Positions 3,262 to 14,063 of a DNA stretch of 55,880 nucleotides are shown here, one piece after another. The stretch's first letter is position 1; every line of letters starts with the position of its first letter. The notes beneath the pieces are model-generated. The model saw only the letters and a program-made list of their open reading frames with translations. It searched no databases and was not told the DNA's origin. Source of the stretch: a virus (taxonomy: Duplodnaviria > Caudoviricetes); the IMG/VR virus record IMGVR_UViG_3300035182_000298, positions 1 through 55,880 of that record. One strand, written 5' to 3'. Position numbers and translations under genes: made by a program.

Positions 3262-3756
3262 TTAGTTAGCTGCTATAATAGATTTAACTTTAGTGCGTTC
3301 TGACACACCAGAAGCATCATCAAATAAAGGCATAATAACTTGCATTAATGCACCTACAGTATCAAAACCATCTTTGATAAGATTAGCTGCAAGCAGTGTA
3401 TGACGCACTGACACTACATTGCTAAGCTCTTGCTCTTTGAATTGATCACGAATTGTCTTAGATACTTTAACAATAGCTTTTGCTATCTTTTCGCTAACAC
3501 CAGTACGCACCATCAAAATGTTTGTTTCTGACATCTCAGATGGATAGCTTAATTCCACAGGAAAGAAGCGATCTAATAACGCACGATCAATTTGAGTGGT
3601 ACCACTATATTCTGCACCTAGGTTGGCGGTAGCAAAAAACACACACTTCTCATTGATAGTAATATTACGTACTGCATCACCACCAGCAATATCTACAGGA
3701 AGATACCTGCGTTTATCAAGACAAGGAAACAATATATTAGTAGCACTTAGTGGGGC
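3262..3756 (-). CDS. MoxR/CbbQ-type AAA+ ATPase, exon 2
   Basis: APLSATNILFPCLD...FFATANLGAEYSGTTQIDRALLDRF (sensor 1 and arginine finger), then VSVRHTL (sensor 2). Joins exon 1 in frame as DELNR^APLS. Confidence 0.9.
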   Translation of the reverse strand, partial: APLSATNILFPCLDKRRYLPVDIAGGDAVRNITINEKCVFFATANLGAEYSGTTQIDRALLDRFFPVELSYPSEMSETNILMVRTGVSEKIAKAIVKVSKTIRDQFKEQELSNVVSVRHTLLAANLIKDGFDTVGALMQVIMPLFDDASGVSERTKVKSIIAAN

Positions 3757-4097
3757 CAATTTGTTATCATAGAAGCTCTTTATCTTCTATTTCTGCATAT
3801 TACTGTGCAGTTCAGACTATATCATCACCAAAGTCAAATATTTTGAAAGTAACAGACACCAATGGATTACCATCTTTATCTCTTTCTATGACTATGGGCA
3901 GGACGCTCGTGTTAGCATTACCATCCTCAACATTACTTGTTAGGACTCGGCTATTAGTCGTTGAACCTTCAAAAGTGTTACCACTTAAGCTTGGCTGCTG
4001 ATTGTCCTCTGAGCCTTCAGTAGGATTTTCCAGCAATTCATCCTGTTTTACAATCGCTTCCCCCTTCTTAAACATATAAATAAGAATATTTTTGTTA
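3757..4097 (-). mobile_element. group I self-splicing intron (341 nt, IA-like, no homing endonuclease)
   Basis: 5' exon ends in U and the intron ends in G. P1: exon AAUCGU pairs with IGS GCGAUU (4057-4052), with U.G at the splice site. Core motifs: P AAUUGCUGGAAA (4038-4027), Q AAUCAGCAG (4003-3995), R UUCAACGACUA (3965-3955), S AUGAUAUAGUC (3825-3815). P3 is CAGGAUG/CGUCCUG and P7 is GACUA/UAGUC. Confidence 0.93.
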
Positions 4098-4865
4098 ACG
4101 ATTTAATTCATCAAGAAGGACAATACCTTCACGTTGTATGTGACCCACAAATGGAGCATAATCAAAGTCTGAGTGACCTTCTTTGTTTAACCTGTGTACA
4201 CCTAACAATGCAGACTGAGCATCTTGCACAGTACCCATATCCTGTATACTCAAAGGTTTTTCCATAGCGCGTGCAATGTGACTTACAAGCTCTGTTTTAC
4301 CTGATCCAGTAGGTCCTATAAGCAAACTATTTTCACCTCGTATAACATTACGAATTAAAAGATACCACATATCAGCGTCAATATAAAATCCAGTGTCTTG
4401 TTCACTAGGACAAGGATACATACGCATAATGCGATCACGCAGTGTACCACTTTCGTTTTCAACAAACGCTTTGCATTTAGCTTCAATATCGATCTGATAA
4501 CCCATCTCTATCCATTTAGTAGCATATTCAATAGCTATATCACGCTTAATTATGTTGGATGCAATCATCCATTCAAATGCATAATTTACATCTTCATTAG
4601 TTGGACAAGCATCGCCTTTAATACTACCATACAAATTGTCTTCGTGCATCACAGCACGAGGTGTACCCATTATTTTACATACTAAATCACCCCAGCTAAT
4701 ATCACTCACTGCAAATATTGTCCCAATGGGGAATTTTGTCAAAACTTTAGAATCACCCACAAATGTAGTAGTAGCTAAATCTACAGCAACAGGATTGTTA
4801 GCTTGATTCTTAACGAATTCAATAGTAAACTGTGTTCCCTTAAGGGTTGTTTGAATAAGATACAT
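4098..4865 (-). CDS. MoxR/CbbQ-type AAA+ ATPase, exon 1 (spliced product 420 aa)
   Basis: Walker A GPTGSGKT and Walker B IVLLDELNR, followed immediately by a TAA that is the first three bases of the intron. Confidence 0.9.
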
Positions 4866-5051: not shown

Positions 5052-5486
5052 TTATTTATCAGATCCTTCTGAATATTTCCAATGTATATGTACTGCAAAT
5101 GCAGACAATACTCCTGCAATGGCAGTTGCTACCCACCAATTTCTACTTTTGCGCACAGATGCGTGTTTTTTAGCTGCTGCTACTTGTTGGTAAAGATTTT
5201 CACTAGACATACTATCGTTGTAGTTACGCTCCTTTAGAAGTTCACTTTGCATGTATGTAGTGTTTCTATCTTTAGCAACCAACATTTCAGATTGATTCTT
5301 TAAGTCAGCACGTAAGGTTATAACTTCAATGCGAATTGAATCACACTCCTGAAGATCCTCTAACATATATTTCATTAGATACTTTGGAGTGTATACCAAA
5401 GAATCTTTATTTGTTTTCGTACCGCTTTGTGAGAATGCGGTTGTAATACTGAGAAGAGTAATTAGAAATAGGAGTGATTTTTTCAT
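5052..5486 (-). CDS. envelope protein: signal peptide, coiled coil and C-terminal TM segment
   Basis: MKKSLLFLITLLSITTAFS-Q signal; C-terminal WWVATAIAGVLSAFAVHIHW. Confidence 0.7.
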   Translation of the reverse strand: MKKSLLFLITLLSITTAFSQSGTKTNKDSLVYTPKYLMKYMLEDLQECDSIRIEVITLRADLKNQSEMLVAKDRNTTYMQSELLKERNYNDSMSSENLYQQVAAAKKHASVRKSRNWWVATAIAGVLSAFAVHIHWKYSEGSDK

Positions 5487-5754
5487 TTTTATTAATGGTT
5501 TTAGTAATAATTTTTATAGGTGTTAATTTAAGTTGATTATTTTCAGACTCAATCTCAATAACGTGGTTAATAAGTTGGTCTTTTTCTTGGATCATGCCGC
5601 TCATCTTTTCATTGAGTGACTCAATGGTAGCAGATTGAAATTCAGTCTGATTAATTAATTGTTTTTGATACTTGGCAAGATCGCTATATTCTAGGTATAT
5701 GAATATACAGAACGCTAGCATAATTGTTAGTAAGATAGATTGTAATACTTTCAT
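5407..5754 (-). CDS. membrane-anchored coiled-coil protein (spanin-like architecture)
   Basis: N-terminal TM segment then a heptad-rich region; overlaps the next gene by 80 nt. Confidence 0.65.
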   Translation of the reverse strand: MKVLQSILLTIMLAFCIFIYLEYSDLAKYQKQLINQTEFQSATIESLNEKMSGMIQEKDQLINHVIEIESENNQLKLTPIKIITKTINKNEKITPISNYSSQYYNRILTKRYENK

Positions 5755-5823: not shown

Positions 5824-6009
5824 TCATAGTACTTTCCAATGATCATCTATAGCCTTTTCTGATTCTATGCTAATAAGACAGAAATCTGTATTGCTATCAG
5901 ATAGTTCATACTCATAATAATAATAGCCAGTGGTATCCCCTGATTCTTCTGGAGACACCACTATTTTTGTAAAACCTAATTTTTCAAGGTCTAGTTGTGT
6001 AATTTTCAT
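5824..6009 (-). CDS. hypothetical protein, possibly frameshifted near its 3' end
   Basis: 61 aa ORF. A plausible continuation in the +1 frame ends at 5759. Confidence 0.6.
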   Translation of the reverse strand: MKITQLDLEKLGFTKIVVSPEESGDTTGYYYYEYELSDSNTDFCLISIESEKAIDDHWKVL

Positions 6010-6596
6010 CGTATTTCAAATCCTCCACATTCGCGTAAGAAATTAACAAAGTCTTGTAAACAAGTCAATCCACAACAGTGGGATGTGTTATACATAAAAC
6101 CATCCACTTCAAATACACCATCTTTAACAAATATTTCGGGATATAAAAATAGCTCTAATTTATTTGATAGTATAGGTTCTACACTAACATTAGACAGACT
6201 ACCTGATTCTGTTATTGTTTGTTGTGTATACCATCCTACATTCAAACCAATACTATTCCATCCTTCAAACTTTACAGCAATATAATCATCAATAAAATTA
6301 GCAAGTATTGTGCATTCTTGTTGAGTCTTCAACCCAGCTCCAGAATTTACTTGAATATTATCAATAAAATCTACTGGTAAGGATAAATTATACATAGTAG
6401 CAGATTCCAAGATTACCTGTGCAATAGGACGCCAACTCCACACATTAGCTCTAAAGTAATAACCAAGGTTTTCTTGCTCAAACTCTGCCATGCTTGTCCT
6501 ATAATCATTTTTTTGCACTCTAGTGCTATTATCCCATTCTATTTCTGGTTTTACACCCTTAATCATAGGGTTTAAACCGTAGATATCCATGCCCAT
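6006..6596 (-). CDS. phage hypothetical protein (MGMDIY family)
   Basis: MGMDIYG...YFRANVWSWRPI...FVNFLRECGGFEIR; overlaps neighbours in operon fashion. Confidence 0.75.
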   Translation of the reverse strand: MGMDIYGLNPMIKGVKPEIEWDNSTRVQKNDYRTSMAEFEQENLGYYFRANVWSWRPIAQVILESATMYNLSLPVDFIDNIQVNSGAGLKTQQECTILANFIDDYIAVKFEGWNSIGLNVGWYTQQTITESGSLSNVSVEPILSNKLELFLYPEIFVKDGVFEVDGFMYNTSHCCGLTCLQDFVNFLRECGGFEIR

Positions 6597-11284: not shown

Positions 11285-11494
11285 TTAAATGGTTAACTCA
11301 TCTTCATCAGCTAAATGGCTGTCATTAAACTCATTAGCTATATCACCTTTAAGTTCAAACACTCCTTTATTATGCTTGTTACTATTGTTCACAATCATTT
11401 TAAGAACATTGCGTAGGTGGTGAATATCCATAGACATTATATCTATGAATGTACCATCTTTTTGTTTCCAATAAACTATTTCTTTATTGTTCAT
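11285..11494 (-). CDS. hypothetical protein
   Basis: Contains WKQKDGTFIDIMSMDIHHLRNVLKMI. Confidence 0.65.
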   Translation of the reverse strand: MNNKEIVYWKQKDGTFIDIMSMDIHHLRNVLKMIVNNSNKHNKGVFELKGDIANEFNDSHLADEDELTI

Positions 11495-11933
11495 TTGATT
11501 GATTTTCTAAACCATTAAGCTCACATTCGTTTTTTAAATCATTAAAAGAATTATACCATTCTAACTGTTCTGGAGTTAGTTTTGATTTTAAATCTTTTAT
11601 TAATTCAAGTTGTTCTTCTTTCCACCATTTGTATTCAAGATGTGCTTGATAATTATCAGATACATCTTCAATATCTTCAGATGTTAATCTTGAAGGATGA
11701 TTGTTTTCTATCTCTTGTTCAAGCTGTTGAATATAAGAAATAGGATAAGATTCAAAAGTAATTTCTTTTTCAGCTGTAGAATATCCTCCACCAATTAGTG
11801 CAAGTTTTTCTCTAACCATAAATAAACATGGTCTAATATTACCTAACCCTAATGGAGACTCTGTTTCTAAATGATATTTAGTTAACAGTCTTTCTAGTTG
11901 TTCTAATTCTAAGTTTGTCATTTTATTTTGCAT
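11484..11933 (-). CDS. hypothetical protein, first gene of the long early operon
   Basis: 149 aa ORF starting about 65 nt downstream of the twister ribozyme. Confidence 0.65.
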   Translation of the reverse strand: MQNKMTNLELEQLERLLTKYHLETESPLGLGNIRPCLFMVREKLALIGGGYSTAEKEITFESYPISYIQQLEQEIENNHPSRLTSEDIEDVSDNYQAHLEYKWWKEEQLELIKDLKSKLTPEQLEWYNSFNDLKNECELNGLENQSNEQ

Positions 11934-11999
11934 ATTATTACAACTTGCCAGTTGCTTGTTATTGGTTATTCATTCACTAAAGTAGAATGATTCACTTAA

Positions 12000-12140
12000 T
12001 ATTATCCCTCTGCACTCAGTTGTAATAACTAAAATCTTTCATTTAGTATCAGAGATCACCCATCAATCAACTATGTTTAGATTGACACTGTGTATTACAA
12101 CTGCTCACCCTTGGGAAGTGAGAATGGTGCATTAATAATA
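12000..12140 (-). ncRNA. twister self-cleaving ribozyme (P1 type with a long P5 insertion)
   Basis: UAUUAU-UAA-UGCA-CC-AUU-CUCAC-UUCCCAAGG-GUGAG-[P5 CAGUUGUAAUA...UAUUACAACUG]-AG-UGCA-GAGGG-AUAAUA. P1, P2 and P4 pair, as do both pseudoknots (CC/GG and CCC/GGG). Predicted cleavage U^A at 12134/12133. Confidence 0.88.
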
Positions 12141-12346
12141 GACATTATTGTTTAGTCTATTGATTTGTAATCAGGAAAAAATTAAGATTTCTCGCCTGAT
12201 CTATAGGATACTACCCTACTTATATAAGATTACATATAATAGAAATATGATCCTATCATTAGTTCAAGGATATTGATTAGTGTGACTTAGAGTTGATGGA
12301 TTGATGTGTAAAGTAATAATTAAGTTATCTAGTGCCGCGTTTTTGA

Positions 12347-12362
12347 TGTTTCATGTGGAACA
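12347..12362. promoter_or_regulatory. parS-like site
   Basis: TGTTTCATGTGGAACA has one mismatch to the bacterial parS consensus TGTTTCACGTGNAACA; intergenic. Confidence 0.4.
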
Positions 12363-12699
12363 AGTAACTATAATGAATGAGTGTGAGAGGTATATACTCC
12401 TCACATTCAATCACTTACACATTTATTCTACTACTTGATTAGTAGAGATTGCAGTAATTATATGCATCTTAGAATAATGCAAATGTTATTGCAGAAACAA
12501 CGCTTATCATTGGTGGTAAGTGCTAATAATTGCGGGAAAACACTACATCTTAATTTTGTAATATATTGATTCTGTAACAATTTGTACTATTCTAATACGA
12601 ATTTACCCGCACAATACTGTTAAGAATGCGTTGTTGAAGTGTGGCGCAACGCGCGAACAACTGTTGCGAAGCAACGCCTTATTTTGAAGCGACATAAAG

Positions 12700-12737
12700 C
12701 TGTAATGAGCAAGGGGTATTTTCCTTGCTCATTACAG
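12700..12737 (-). terminator. perfect 15-bp inverted repeat after gene 12747-13277 (terminator or processing stem)
   Basis: CTGTAATGAGCAAGG-N8-CCTTGCTCATTACAG; the U-tract is weak. Confidence 0.65.
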
Positions 12738-12746
12738 AGTGTCTGC

Positions 12747-13277
12747 TTACTTGCGTGCTCGTGCTCGTGGTTTTGAGACTGCTCTTGCAGGTGTCGCAGG
12801 TGGCGTAGCAGTTGGTCCTGCAAGATTAGCGGGTGTACTTGCTTTAGCAGGTGCGTTGCTGTCTTTGGACGTATCACGTTTTTTGAAGCCTGCTTTAAGT
12901 GCACTTGCGAAGTTTTCGTTCGCACGCTTGCTCGAAGACTCAAAATCATCGTACGCACGATAGCGTCCCAATAGATAGTCGCCACTATCAGCGGTTTTAC
13001 CGTCTAACCACGTGATTTGACCTGATTTGAATGGTGGTGGGACTTCTACTTCAAGTTCATCACCTACTTCATTAACCAAGATTTGGTAGCGTGGTACAAA
13101 CCAAAGAGGTGTGCCTGTATCAGCGTCCTCAATAAGTTTGTACTTACCTGTGGAGTCAAGCTCTGCCTCTTGTTCCACGTTGTCGCAATATTCATCAAGT
13201 TGCTCTTGCGACCCAATGACTTCATACGTGTAACTGCGACCGTTAACACGTAAAAACTTTACTGATAATGTTTCCAT
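12747..13277 (-). CDS. putative immediate-early protein with a basic Ala/Pro/Lys/Arg-rich C-terminal tail
   Basis: 176 aa and visibly more GC-rich than its neighbours; tail APAKASTPANLAGPTATPPATPARAVSKPRARARK; flanked by a hairpin motif and a terminator. Confidence 0.75.
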   Translation of the reverse strand: METLSVKFLRVNGRSYTYEVIGSQEQLDEYCDNVEQEAELDSTGKYKLIEDADTGTPLWFVPRYQILVNEVGDELEVEVPPPFKSGQITWLDGKTADSGDYLLGRYRAYDDFESSSKRANENFASALKAGFKKRDTSKDSNAPAKASTPANLAGPTATPPATPARAVSKPRARARK

Positions 13278-13306
13278 AAGTTTCTTTTTTAAGATTAGAT
13301 AATAAC

Positions 13307-13350
13307 AAGTAACGTAAGAAATTGAGAATGAACGAAGTGAATTCTTAATT
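13307..13350 (-). promoter_or_regulatory. bipartite hairpin motif, copy 1 (candidate early/virion-RNAP promoter)
   Basis: Plus strand AAGTAACGTAAG-N9-ATGAACGAAGTGAAT; the hairpin extends over 13320-13350; about 30 nt upstream of the ATG at 13277. Confidence 0.55.
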
Positions 13351-13359
13351 GATTGGTGT

Positions 13360-13387
13360 AAAAGGGTGCAGAAAACTCTGCTACCCT
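13360..13387 (-). terminator. putative terminator after small ORF 13409-13519
   Basis: AGGGTAGCAGA-GTTT-TCTGCACCCT then TTT on the minus strand. Confidence 0.5.
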
Positions 13388-13408
13388 ACAAGGCTGTGTG
13401 GCGAACAT

Positions 13409-13519
13409 CTATCGAAGTTCTTTCAGATATTCTAAACGCTGTGCATAGCAATCAGCAATGGATACACCACTGATTACTATAGCAATATCTGTAAACCACA
13501 TATATACAATATCATACAT
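13409..13519 (-). CDS. 36-aa peptide, putative first early gene
   Basis: Read by hand: MYDIVYMWFTDIAIVISGVSIADCYAQRLEYLKELR. Lies between motif copy 2 and a terminator-like hairpin. Confidence 0.4.
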   Translation of the reverse strand: MYDIVYMWFTDIAIVISGVSIADCYAQRLEYLKELR

Positions 13520-13532
13520 AGTGACTGACAAT

Positions 13533-13570
13533 AAGTAACGTAAGTAATCCCAGATGAACGAAGTGAATCT
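13533..13570 (-). promoter_or_regulatory. bipartite hairpin motif, copy 2
   Basis: AAGTAACGTAAG-N9-ATGAACGAAGTGAAT with identical boxes and spacing but a different spacer sequence; outer stem AGAT/ATCT. Confidence 0.55.
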
Positions 13571-13749
13571 ATGTCTCAAAGAATTCTTTTTTTGTTTAGT
13601 TTTCTGATTTTCAAAACTTATCTACAAAGTGACGGGGGTACCAGGTAGACATCATCGAGGCGGGGATTGTTACACTAGGTACCAATCACATCCTCTAATA
13701 TTAAAAACATCATATAGTGGGATAAAAATTTCTAGTATTGATAATCAAA

Positions 13750-13782
13750 TTTGGAAAATTTAAATTTTACTTTATATATTTG
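13750..13782 (+). promoter_or_regulatory. Bacteroidota-type housekeeping sigma promoter for the rightward module
   Basis: TTTG (13750-13753), N21, TATATTTG (13775-13782) matches the -33 TTTG / -7 TAnnTTTG consensus, about 45 nt before the first rightward ATG. Confidence 0.65.
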
Positions 13783-13826
13783 TATTTCTATTACGTTAGT
13801 ATAACCAACAAAAATTATTAAATAAT

Positions 13827-14063
13827 ATGTCAGAAAAACAAGAACGTCCATCTAGAGAGCAGATGGTTCAGTGGTACAAGGATGAGATTGAGTTAGCTTC
13901 TTTTCGTGCTGATTTGTCTAAGTTACAAAGGGATGCCGCTGTATATGAAGCAGAGCGTATTAATGCAATTGGTGCTATTGCACAGATGACACAACCTGAG
14001 CAGGAGGATGCTGATCAAACTAAAGTAAAAAAATTAAAGAAAGAAGTTCTAAATGCAGATTAA
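13827..14063 (+). CDS. hypothetical coiled-coil protein
   Basis: First rightward ORF, 78 aa. Confidence 0.7.
   Translation: MSEKQERPSREQMVQWYKDEIELASFRADLSKLQRDAAVYEAERINAIGAIAQMTQPEQEDADQTKVKKLKKEVLNAD

What the first reader, a model, noticed from the sequence alone, without database searches (positions are those of the whole stretch)
12000..12140. Twister ribozyme in the leader of the early operon
Seen: a complete twister core on the sense strand of the early genes. P1 is UAUUAU/AUAAUA, followed by UAA, P2 UGCA/UGCA, P4 CUCAC/GUGAG with loop UUCCCAAGG, and GAGGG. One pseudoknot is CC/GG in place of the GC/GC of the rice twister, a compensatory change. P5 is an insertion of about 90 nt closed by an 11-bp stem. 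Known: twisters self-cleave at U^A and leave a 5'-OH. Inference: cleavage about 200 nt before the ATG at 11933 would give the polycistronic early mRNA a defined 5'-OH structured end and release the upstream leader as a separate RNA. Together with the hairpin motifs, this suggests a self-processing early transcription cassette.
Basis: partly seen in the sequence, partly recalled or inferred. Interest (0 to 1): 0.8.

Follow-up and report, generated by a model that had tools for sequence, protein, structure and literature searches.

The report
Phage twister ribozyme, large P5 arm
A crAss-like phage carries, between two genes on the same strand, a self-cutting "twister" RNA of a phage-specific type that the standard RNA catalogue misses; it probably cuts the phage message just ahead of a block of small genes, but the cutting itself has not been tested.

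Summary
The described elements are all present on the minus strand at 12140-12000: P1, U^AA, P2, CC, P4 with loop UUCCCAAGG, an 87-nt P5, P2', GAGGG and P1'. A sequence-free twister descriptor hits only this site in the window, against 1 hit in 200 shuffled windows.

Rfam gives no twister hit for this copy at any threshold. The copy still belongs to a large family in uncultured phage contigs.

Across the family, P1, P2, P4 and P5 all show compensatory changes. All three Watson-Crick pairs of pseudoknot T1 also do: CCC/GGG, CCA/UGG, CAC/GUG, UCC/GGA. The relative with the shortest P5 has RF03160 as its best Rfam match, at 20.2 bits and E 0.021.

Copies lie co-oriented between genes. I read this as a genuine type-P1 twister without P3 and with a hypervariable P5. 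It probably cleaves the minus-strand transcript at 12134/12133.

Cleavage, the promoter and "early" timing are not shown.

This scan has already reported the same family on other phage DNA. Verdict: a new variant of a known kind, of moderate interest.

The parts
12135..12140 (-). P1 5' strand, UAUUAU
   Evidence: Pairs with 12000-12005. Across the family the two inner P1 pairs are paired in 54 of 62 sequences, with UA/UG/CG/AU/GU types.
12132..12134 (-). Cleavage site U^AA. The predicted cut is between U12134 and A12133. A12133 is the predicted general acid.
   Evidence: UAA occupies this place in 118 of 129 parsed family elements. The N^A rule comes from PMC11662667 (passages). Cleavage itself is inferred.
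12128..12131 (-). P2 5' strand, UGCA
   Evidence: Pairs with 12011-12014. All 4 pairs show double changes in A2, for example UGUA/UACA and UGCG/CGCA.
12126..12127 (-). T2 (PK1) 5' strand, CC
   Evidence: Complementary to GG 12109-12110. CG in 99-100 of about 104 rows and UG in 2-4. C12127 also covaries with G12015.
12118..12122 (-). P4 5' strand, CUCAC
   Evidence: Pairs with 12104-12108. Second copies in the family show several different P4 stem sequences that keep all five pairs (listed), and 5 of 5 pairs show double changes.
12109..12117 (-). Loop L4, UUCCCAAGG. CCC 12113-12115 is the T1 5' strand, AA is 12111-12112, and GG 12109-12110 is the T2 3' strand.
   Evidence: T1 triplet variants CCA, CAC and UCC each have the matching 3' triplet.
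12104..12108 (-). P4 3' strand, GUGAG
12017..12103 (-). P5 arm, 87 nt. The 11-bp closing stem is 12093-12103 with 12017-12027. The branched interior has two predicted hairpins.
   Evidence: Fold -21.9 kcal/mol, z = -2.8. 10 of 11 closing pairs show double changes. The interior is hypervariable across the family: 106 unique sequences fall in 89 clusters, median 86 nt, and the window's is a singleton.
12011..12014 (-). P2 3' strand, UGCA
12006..12010 (-). GAGGG. G12010 is the predicted general base. A12009 faces A12112. GGG 12006-12008 is the T1 3' strand.
   Evidence: It aligns to GAGGG of the RF03160 consensus in a relative. GA is present in 125 of 129 elements.
12000..12005 (-). P1 3' strand, AUAAUA
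   Evidence: Homology to the related contig L001 begins at 11996, 4 nt after this strand.
11484..11933 (-). First downstream ORF (149 aa, no family match), followed by further small minus-strand ORFs. This is the RNA that would carry the ribozyme at its 5' end.
   Evidence: The second in-frame ATG at 11921 may be the true start, because L001 has CTG at the first.
12747..13277 (-). Nearest upstream same-strand ORF (176 aa, no family match, GC 0.46-0.49 against about 0.30 around it), followed by a 15-bp hairpin at 12700-12737.

Best explanation
Window 12140-12000 (minus strand) encodes a type-P1 twister self-cleaving ribozyme. It belongs to a subfamily found in uncultured, crAss-like phage contigs. 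The subfamily has no P3, near-invariant P2/P4/P5-base sequences, and a long, hypervariable, folded P5 arm (87 nt here).

The element is transcribed together with the minus-strand gene array. The RNA folds so that L4 pairs with GGG of GAGGG (T1) and with CC after P2 (T2). It then cuts itself between U12134 and A12133.

The upstream RNA ends in a 2',3'-cyclic phosphate. The downstream RNA starts with a 5'-OH on A12133, carries the folded ribozyme as its 5' end, and continues after 66 nt into the 149-aa ORF and the small ORFs behind it.

The likely consequence is that the downstream message is uncoupled from what lies upstream and gets its own stability or translation behaviour.

Shown: the sequence and fold, family membership, covariation and gene orientation. 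Inferred: transcription through the site, cleavage, the end chemistry and the effect on the mRNA.
For: 1. All core elements are present and identical to the family majority at every core position.

2. The site is not chance: 1 descriptor hit in the window against 1 in 200 shuffles.

3. The family is large.
- My model R1 finds 124 + 30 matches at E <= 0.001 in 121 sources.
- The window's match scores 114.1 bits.

4. Covariation on A1 (62 sequences): 90.2% of cells are paired against 84.6 +/- 0.5 in shuffles, 0 of 500 shuffles reach the observed value, and slid controls give 33-47%.

5. Covariation on A2 (111 distinct rows): 90.3% against 81.8 +/- 0.4, and 27 of 31 pairs carry double changes. 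That covers all 5 pairs of P4, all 4 of P2, 10 of 11 of P5 and all 6 of P1.

6. T1 was not part of the model, and the variant copies were fetched by patterns that fix only the loop side. Of 129 unique parsed elements:
- 101 are CCC/GGG, 11 CCA/UGG, 10 CAC/GUG and 1 UCC/GGA;
- that makes 123 of 129 fully complementary, with double changes at all three pairs.

7. The relative with a 16-nt P5 (L093:6361-6426) has RF03160 twister-P1 as its best Rfam family. The hit is 20.2 bits, E 0.021, over model positions 1-68, and aligns UAA, P2, GAGGG and P1.

8. Context across the family:
- the nearest ORF of at least 80 aa is co-oriented downstream in 99 of 105 copies and upstream in 106 of 111;
- the median distance to the next same-strand ORF is 180 nt.

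9. Rfam finds hatchet ribozymes in two of the 12 related contigs scanned.

10. Literature passages: P1 is dispensable, and every tested twister with a P5/L5 cleaved at more than 0.8, although the sample was small (PMC11662667).
Against: - No Rfam twister model matches this copy. This holds at gathering threshold, at E <= 10 on 401 nt, on the 61-nt 5' half, and for RF03160 searched in the record.
- A copy with a 43-nt P5 region also fails. The one hit obtained, 20.2 bits, is far below the 67.2-bit cut-off, and its inner part was skipped by the aligner.
- There is no RNA evidence. The only RNA run is stored as contigs, holds a small share of the stretch, and covers only the conserved core of relatives.
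- T2 shows no clean double change. Its first C covaries instead with G12015: U goes with A in 14 of 16 cases.
- P1 in the window is six A-U pairs, and outer P1 pairs are unpaired in about half of the family.
- Several relatives are degenerate yet keep P2/P4/P5. This includes L001, the copy upstream of the homologous gene. Cleavage is therefore not indispensable there.
- 6 of 129 elements have incomplete T1, and 4 of 129 lack the general-base G.
- No promoter was identified.
Confidence: 0.75

Rival explanations
1. It is a twister-derived structured RNA whose job is not cleavage. On this view the conserved P2/P4/P5 three-way scaffold and its variable P5 arm are the functional unit, for example a protein- or RNA-binding domain or a 5'-UTR stabiliser. 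The catalytic core would be vestigial or only occasionally used.
For: - Relatives that have lost L4 and/or GAGGG still keep P2, a tetraloop P4 and the P5 base. Examples are L001:2270-2506, three copies in L069, L063, L010, L083 and L072.
- The P5 closing stem is conserved in sequence beyond what pairing needs.
- The P5 interior folds better than shuffles, z = -2.8.
Against: - The window's copy has every catalytic and pseudoknot position intact.
- T1 pairs are maintained by double changes in 22 elements. That is selection on the catalytic fold, not only on the scaffold.
- P5 interiors share no sequence: 89 clusters from 106 unique sequences. This argues against a common ligand or partner.
Confidence: 0.12
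2. The main role is at the DNA level. The element would be a repeated intergenic cassette that serves as a recombination or mobility boundary and shuffles gene modules between phages. Its RNA activity would be incidental.
For: - Homology between the window and L001 starts 4 nt after the P1 3' strand.
- The same P5 interior occurs with different flanks: L048/L056/L078 and L016/L081/L100.
- The same interior also occurs with different P4 stems: L015, L028 and L055.
- Some contigs hold two or more copies.
Against: - Compensatory changes in four stems and a pseudoknot only make sense for an RNA.
- The strict co-orientation with flanking genes is an RNA-level property.
- The window holds only one copy.
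- This reading is not exclusive of the ribozyme reading.
Confidence: 0.08
3. It is a chance resemblance to the twister motif in AT-rich intergenic DNA.
For: No Rfam hit for this copy.
Against: - 1 descriptor hit in 200 shuffled windows.
- More than 119 contigs carry the same element.
- Covariation is beyond all 500 shuffles and beyond all slid controls.
Confidence: 0.01

Closest known systems
Type-P1 twister self-cleaving ribozyme (Rfam RF03160). The class was described by Roth et al. 2014, as reviewed in PMC5408937 and PMC6154101, and tested at scale in PMC11662667.
   Same: - The order P1 - N^AA - P2 - NC - P4/L4 - (P5) - P2' - GAGGG - P1'.
- Two pseudoknots from L4, and the conserved AA in L4.
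- The G directly 3' of P2' and the A 3' of the cut.
- An optional P5, which is known.
   Different: - There is no P3, although 78% of twisters have one.
- A P5 is present, which only 1% have according to PMC6154101 (passage).
- The P5 is long (median 86 nt, 10-194 in the parsed copies, and longer in some) and hypervariable.
- The stems are nearly invariant in sequence.
- The family is found almost only in uncultured phage contigs: 5 MAG contigs among 185,579 species genomes and none in 50,697 GenBank phage records.
- It scores below the Rfam cut-off.
Twister-sister ribozyme
   Same: Reviews describe a similar stem layout and a similar P4 loop (PMC6154101, PMC5408937, passages).
   Different: According to those reviews, twister-sister has no pseudoknots and cuts the other strand. 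Here T1 is supported by double changes at all three pairs, and the UAA/GAGGG core aligns to twister-P1. No twister-sister hit appeared in any Rfam call.
Hatchet ribozymes (RF02678) of crAss-like phages
   Same: They are self-cleaving RNAs in intergenic regions of the same kind of phage. They are present about 1 kb upstream of family copies in L004 and L009. A 2026 preprint (10.64898/2026.03.07.710320, passage) says hatchet is largely confined to Crassvirales.
   Different: The fold is unrelated, and none is found in this window.
The same family as noted earlier by this scan on other phage DNA
   Same: A twister core with a large P5 or loop insertion, in crAss-like lake phages, missed by Rfam, with cleavage untested.
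   Different: This copy is intact, single, and only 66 nt from the next start codon. Some earlier ones were mismatched, tandem, or at the head of long non-coding RNAs.

Membership tests
Twister ribozyme (type P1) | Stems P1, P2 and P4 in type-P1 order | tested here: met
   The MFE fold gives them. Across the family, all pairs of P1, P2 and P4 show double changes. A2 was fitted to these stems, but the MAFFT alignment A1 shows the same for P1, P2 and P5. The P4 variants were found as second copies and were not selected for.
Twister ribozyme (type P1) | Pseudoknot T1 (PK2): the L4 triplet pairs with GGG of GAGGG, plus A facing A | tested here: met
   CCC 12113-12115 pairs with GGG 12006-12008, and A12112 faces A12009. 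123 of 129 elements are fully complementary, with CCA/UGG (11), CAC/GUG (10) and UCC/GGA (1). The 3' triplet was unconstrained in both the fetching and the parsing.
Twister ribozyme (type P1) | Pseudoknot T2 (PK1): 2 bp, with 5' strand 'NC' | tested here: inconclusive
   CC 12126-12127 is complementary to GG 12109-12110 and fits the 'NC' rule (PMC11662667 passage). Variation is limited to U.G wobbles and one U-A. The first C covaries with G12015 instead: U with A in 14 of 16.
Twister ribozyme (type P1) | Cleavage site N^A between P1 and P2, with the A acting as general acid | tested here: met
   U^AA at 12134-12132. UAA is in 118 of 129 elements, AAA in 4 and CAA in 3. This shows sequence only.
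Twister ribozyme (type P1) | Conserved guanine (general base) directly 3' of the P2 3' strand | tested here: met
   G12010. G is in 125 of 129 elements and A in 4. It aligns to the G of GAGGG in RF03160.
Twister ribozyme (type P1) | Score at or above the Rfam RF03160 gathering cut-off (67.2 bits) | tested here: not met
   No hit for the window's copy or for L023. The short-P5 relative L093 reaches 20.2 bits, E 0.021. This is a curated threshold and not a biological feature. The model expects no long P5.
Twister ribozyme (type P1) | Site-specific self-cleavage | not testable with these tools
   The only RNA run is stored as contigs and shows no ends.
Twister-sister ribozyme | No pseudoknots, and cleavage on the opposite strand of the internal loop | tested here: not met
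   T1 is supported by covariation. No twister-sister hit appeared.

The most novel reading that the evidence does not exclude
The conserved-stem twister may be a portable RNA-processing cassette that crAss-like phages shuffle between gene modules. Its hypervariable, folded P5 arm would then be a functional add-on and not filler. It could be a docking site for a phage or host factor that gates cleavage, or a 5'-terminal shield. Together with the 5'-OH end, such a shield could take the downstream message out of reach of 5'-end-dependent host RNases or RNA-sensing defences.

Tandem copies in relatives use different T1 sequences (CAC/GUG next to CCA/UGG). This hints at selection against cross-folding between neighbouring cassettes.
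Probability: 0.2. Interest if true: 0.7.

Novelty: new variant of a known kind. Interest (0 to 1): 0.45.

Why it matters
The biological role of twister ribozymes is still called speculative in reviews (PMC5408937 and PMC6765202, passages). A phage subfamily with hundreds of copies could make that role testable, because the copies have several useful properties:
- they are strictly co-oriented between genes;
- they are often close to a start codon;
- some are tandem or degenerate.

The finding also shows that the Rfam twister models miss a large natural group. Counts of ribozymes in viromes are therefore underestimates. A dedicated covariance model, such as R1 here, would recover these copies.

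For this window alone it is one more intact member, so the added value is modest.

Tried and rejected
**Rfam**
- The whole window at gathering threshold gives only a group I intron.
- E <= 10 on 11900-12300 gives nothing relevant, nor on the 61-nt 5' half, nor on 12130-13830.
- RF03160 searched in the record gives nothing.
- The L023 copy with a short P5 gives nothing.

**GenBank phages**
- A 501-nt query in distant mode found no match.

**RNA evidence**
- One freshwater metatranscriptome run (X1) holds 0.07 of the sampled words and is stored as contigs.
- Laid on 11400-12800, its contigs cover only the conserved core (12002-12029 and 12094-12122, with other P5 interiors), 12193-12421, and two short pieces of about 35-40 nt near the ends of the stretch.
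- They show no molecule ends. I take nothing from this about expression, cleavage or habitat.

**Promoters**
- 9 sigma-70-like sites were found against 8.2 +/- 2.7 in shuffles.
- No position-specific motif exists in the 70 nt upstream of 98 copies, apart from the U-rich P1 strand.

**Circular or excised RNA**
- The window has a single copy, so I dropped this idea here.

**End-healing enzymes**
- RtcB (PF01139) and RNA ligase (PF09414) are not found in the record. The record is only about 46% complete, so this says little.

**Neighbouring proteins**
- The ORFs at 11484-11933 and 12747-13277, and four other small ORFs, have no PHROG match. The ORFs at 11484-11933 and 12747-13277 also have no Pfam match.
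- 'Early' could therefore not be checked.

**Small ORF**
- The ATG at 12145 opens a 16-codon frame across the ribozyme's 5' half. The equivalent ATG in four relatives opens frames of 4-19 codons. I rejected it as a gene start.

**Papers**
- Roth et al. 2014 and Weinberg et al. 2015 are not held. What I say about them comes from reviews.
The 2014 alignment and the CHiTA sequence lists may already contain members of this family, and I could not check.
- Searches found no paper that describes a phage twister subfamily with a large P5.

Full report
**What is there**

On the minus strand the stretch 12140-12000 reads:
- P1: UAUUAU
- cleavage site: U^AA
- P2: UGCA
- CC, then AUU
- P4: CUCAC
- loop L4: UUCCCAAGG
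- P4': GUGAG
- an 87-nt arm P5, closed by CAGUUGUAAUA/UAUUACAACUG
- AG
- P2': UGCA
- GAGGG
- P1': AUAAUA

The unconstrained fold of 151 nt reproduces P1, P2, P4 and P5, with z = -2.4. The P5 arm alone folds into a three-way junction with two hairpins, z = -2.8.

I wrote a descriptor that fixes only AA, the loop AA and GA, and otherwise asks for complementarity (P2 4 bp, T2 2 bp, P4 5 bp, T1 3 bp). It finds this one site in both strands of the window and one site in 200 dinucleotide shuffles.

**The proposed check fails for this copy**

Rfam 15 finds only a group I intron in the window. No twister model matches in any of these searches:
- at E <= 10 on 401 nt;
- on the 61-nt 5' half;
- when RF03160 is searched in the record;
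- on a relative with a 43-nt P5 region.

**It is a member of a large family**

- Of the matches in 120 loci plus the window, 109 had both halves of the element, 98 of them unique. Eleven did not, several at locus ends.
- The core is nearly identical in all. The flanks that form P1 differ, and so does the P5 interior.
- A covariance model built from 62 of the 98 (those with at most 92 nt between P4 and the 3' motif) finds 124 + 30 matches at E <= 0.001 in the window and 120 loci.
- The window has one match, at 114.1 bits.

Outside viromes the element is rare. It occurs in five MAG contigs among 185,579 species genomes and in none of 50,697 GenBank phage records.

The window's terminase is closest, at 25-26% identity, to crAss-like phages. 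The record is about 46% complete.

**Is it a twister?**

According to reviews, the class is defined by four features (PMC5408937, PMC6154101 and PMC11662667, passages):
- stems P1, P2 and P4;
- two pseudoknots from L4;
- an N^A cut site;
- a general-acid A and a general-base G.

P0, P3 and P5 are optional, present in 21%, 78% and 1% of twisters.

*Stems.*
- On the MAFFT alignment A1, 90.2% of cells pair against 84.6 +/- 0.5 in shuffles. No shuffle of 500 reaches the observed value, and slid controls give 33-47%.
- On the larger model-fitted alignment A2 (111 distinct rows), 27 of 31 pairs carry double changes.
- P4 was invariant in A1 by the way the loci were fetched. Second copies in the same contigs have other P4 sequences that stay paired. 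In the parsed set there are 11 P4 types; that parser required P4 to pair, so the pairing there is by construction.

*Pseudoknot T1.* T1 was in neither the model nor the fetch. I scanned IMG/VR with three patterns that open one position of the L4 triplet each and leave the 3' side free. Most hits were unrelated DNA. The family members among them, together with the earlier loci, give 129 unique parsed elements.
- 101 are CCC/GGG, 11 CCA/UGG, 10 CAC/GUG and 1 UCC/GGA.
- That makes 123 fully complementary, with double changes at each of the three pairs.
- Six elements are not fully complementary. Some are degenerate copies and some are probably parsing errors.
- The parser required P2, P4, T2 and the first three P5 pairs, so only T1, the cut-site triplet and the G/A before A are free counts.
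- UAA is in 118 of 129 elements and GA in 125 of 129.

*Pseudoknot T2.* It is complementary (CC/GG) and fits the 'NC' rule, but it varies only by wobbles. Its first C instead tracks G12015 (U with A in 14 of 16). This may be a fifth P2 pair or a triple, and I leave it open.

*Bridge to Rfam.* The member with the shortest P5 (16 nt; L093:6361-6426) has RF03160 as its best Rfam family.
- The hit is 20.2 bits with E 0.021, and it spans the whole model.
- It aligns UAA, P2, GAGGG and P1, but the inner part is skipped.
- It is far below the 67.2-bit cut-off. Even so, it shows that the long P5, and probably the missing P3, are what hide the family from Rfam.

I conclude that the fold and the key bases are those of a type-P1 twister.

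**How it probably works here**

Family-wide, the element lies between co-oriented genes.
- The nearest ORF of at least 80 aa is on the same strand downstream in 99 of 105 copies and upstream in 106 of 111.
- The next same-strand ORF of at least 50 aa starts a median 180 nt after the model match, and within 150 nt in 44% of copies.
- The 42 nt before the cut are more structured than a control stretch 300 nt further up: median -6.8 against -4.4 kcal/mol, Wilcoxon p about 1e-4. The window's copy has no strong hairpin there.

In the window:
- the upstream same-strand ORF ends at 12747 and is followed by a 15-bp hairpin;
- then come about 560 nt without an ORF, the ribozyme, 66 nt, and the ATG at 11933;
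- an in-frame ATG at 11921 may be the real start, since the related contig L001 has CTG at the first.

By established twister chemistry, the cut would leave a cyclic phosphate upstream and a 5'-OH on A12133. The downstream message would start with the folded ribozyme.

Reviews have suggested that bacterial and phage ribozymes process polycistronic RNAs and so change stability or translation (PMC6765202, passage). That is the mechanism I commit to. Everything from transcription onward is inferred.

**What speaks against the reading or limits it**

- There is no RNA evidence, no promoter, and no function for the neighbouring proteins. 'Early' and 'leader' remain unshown.
- L001 carries the homologue of the downstream gene at 94% DNA identity from 11996 onward. 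It has a degenerate copy without L4 and with GAGAG, about 435 nt further upstream, plus other non-coding modules.
- L048 has an intact copy about 430 nt upstream of the same gene.
- The association with this gene is therefore kept, but cleavage is not indispensable.
- Several other relatives keep P2, a tetraloop P4 and P5 but no catalytic loop. This feeds the rival that the scaffold has a use of its own.
- Identical P5 interiors occur with different flanks and different P4 stems. The homology break also sits at the element's 3' edge. Both suggest the unit moves or recombines as a cassette.

**Novelty**

Twisters with a P5 are known but rare (1%). The tested ones cleave well (PMC11662667, passage, small sample).

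I found no paper describing a phage subfamily with a long hypervariable P5. I could not see the supplementary alignments of the 2014 and 2024 papers, which may hold such sequences.

This scan has reported the same family on at least eight other phage genomes. I used those notes as leads and re-tested the claims here.

- double changes at all three T1 pairs;
- the sub-threshold RF03160 bridge;
- the orientation statistics;
- the C12127/G12015 covariation.

I have not compared these with the earlier reports in detail, so I do not claim that they are new to the scan.

**Verdict**

This is a real, intact member of a new variant of a known ribozyme class. It is of moderate interest, and cleavage remains to be shown.

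Noticed in passing
window 3793-4092 (-), with ORFs 4095-4865 and 3262-3759: A group I intron (RF00028, 79.5 bits) lies between an ORF with an AAA_5 domain and an ORF with a CbbQ_C domain, so it splits a MoxR/CbbQ-type AAA+ ATPase gene. A CobT/VWA protein follows at 1126-2916.
   Followed up: partly
window 12239-12284 (-): A roughly 40-nt conserved non-coding module (ACUAAUCA.UAUCCUUGAAC.AAUGAUAGGA) is shared with L018, L026, L055, L083 and L091. It is predicted to form a hairpin with a 12-nt loop. In relatives it is followed by a second hairpin and by CUAACCAAUAAUG. The ATG there opens only 4-19 codons. In L026 and L055 a twister copy lies about 300 nt downstream; in the window it lies about 105 nt downstream. 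Its function is unknown. It may be a promoter region.
   Followed up: partly
window 13304-13342 and 13530-13568: Two copies of a 39-nt direct repeat (82% alike) lie in the divergent region between the minus-strand small genes and the plus-strand structural genes. One copy lies 27 nt before the ATG at 13277. They are candidate regulatory or promoter sites.
   Followed up: no
window 12650-13250: The 176-aa ORF (12747-13277, no family match) sits in an island of GC 0.46-0.49, against about 0.30 on both sides. It ends in a 15-bp hairpin at 12700-12737. It looks like an acquired cassette.
   Followed up: no
L009:191-325 and L004:5635-5767: Hatchet ribozymes (RF02678, 82.4 and 78.1 bits) lie about 1 kb upstream of twister-family copies in two related phage contigs. 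L009 also carries a tmRNA and tRNAs.
   Followed up: no
L270, L379, L384, L389, L421, L462, L469: Each of these contigs holds two family copies 210-910 nt apart, one with T1 CAC/GUG and the other with CCA/UGG. The neighbouring ribozymes thus have non-interchangeable pseudoknots. This may prevent cross-folding, and the pair may release the RNA between them.
   Followed up: no
L001:2270-2506; L069:5115-5251, 5476-5705 and 6009-6172; L063:525-638; L083:3502-3645: These are twister-like scaffolds that keep P2, P4 (with a tetraloop) and the conserved P5 base. They lack the CCCAAGG loop and/or GAGGG, so they cannot form T1.
   Followed up: partly
window 12127 and 12015 (family-wide): The first C after P2 covaries with the G two positions before P2'. 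The counts are C/G 109, U/A 14 and U with G in 2. The standard twister model pairs this C with L4, so an extra P2 pair, a triple, or an alternative conformer is possible.
   Followed up: partly
L036:3304-3438 and L115:542-673, downstream flanks: In two relatives the ribozyme is followed directly by a tRNA-like sequence and not by an ORF (seen in the printout; not checked with a tRNA finder).
   Followed up: no
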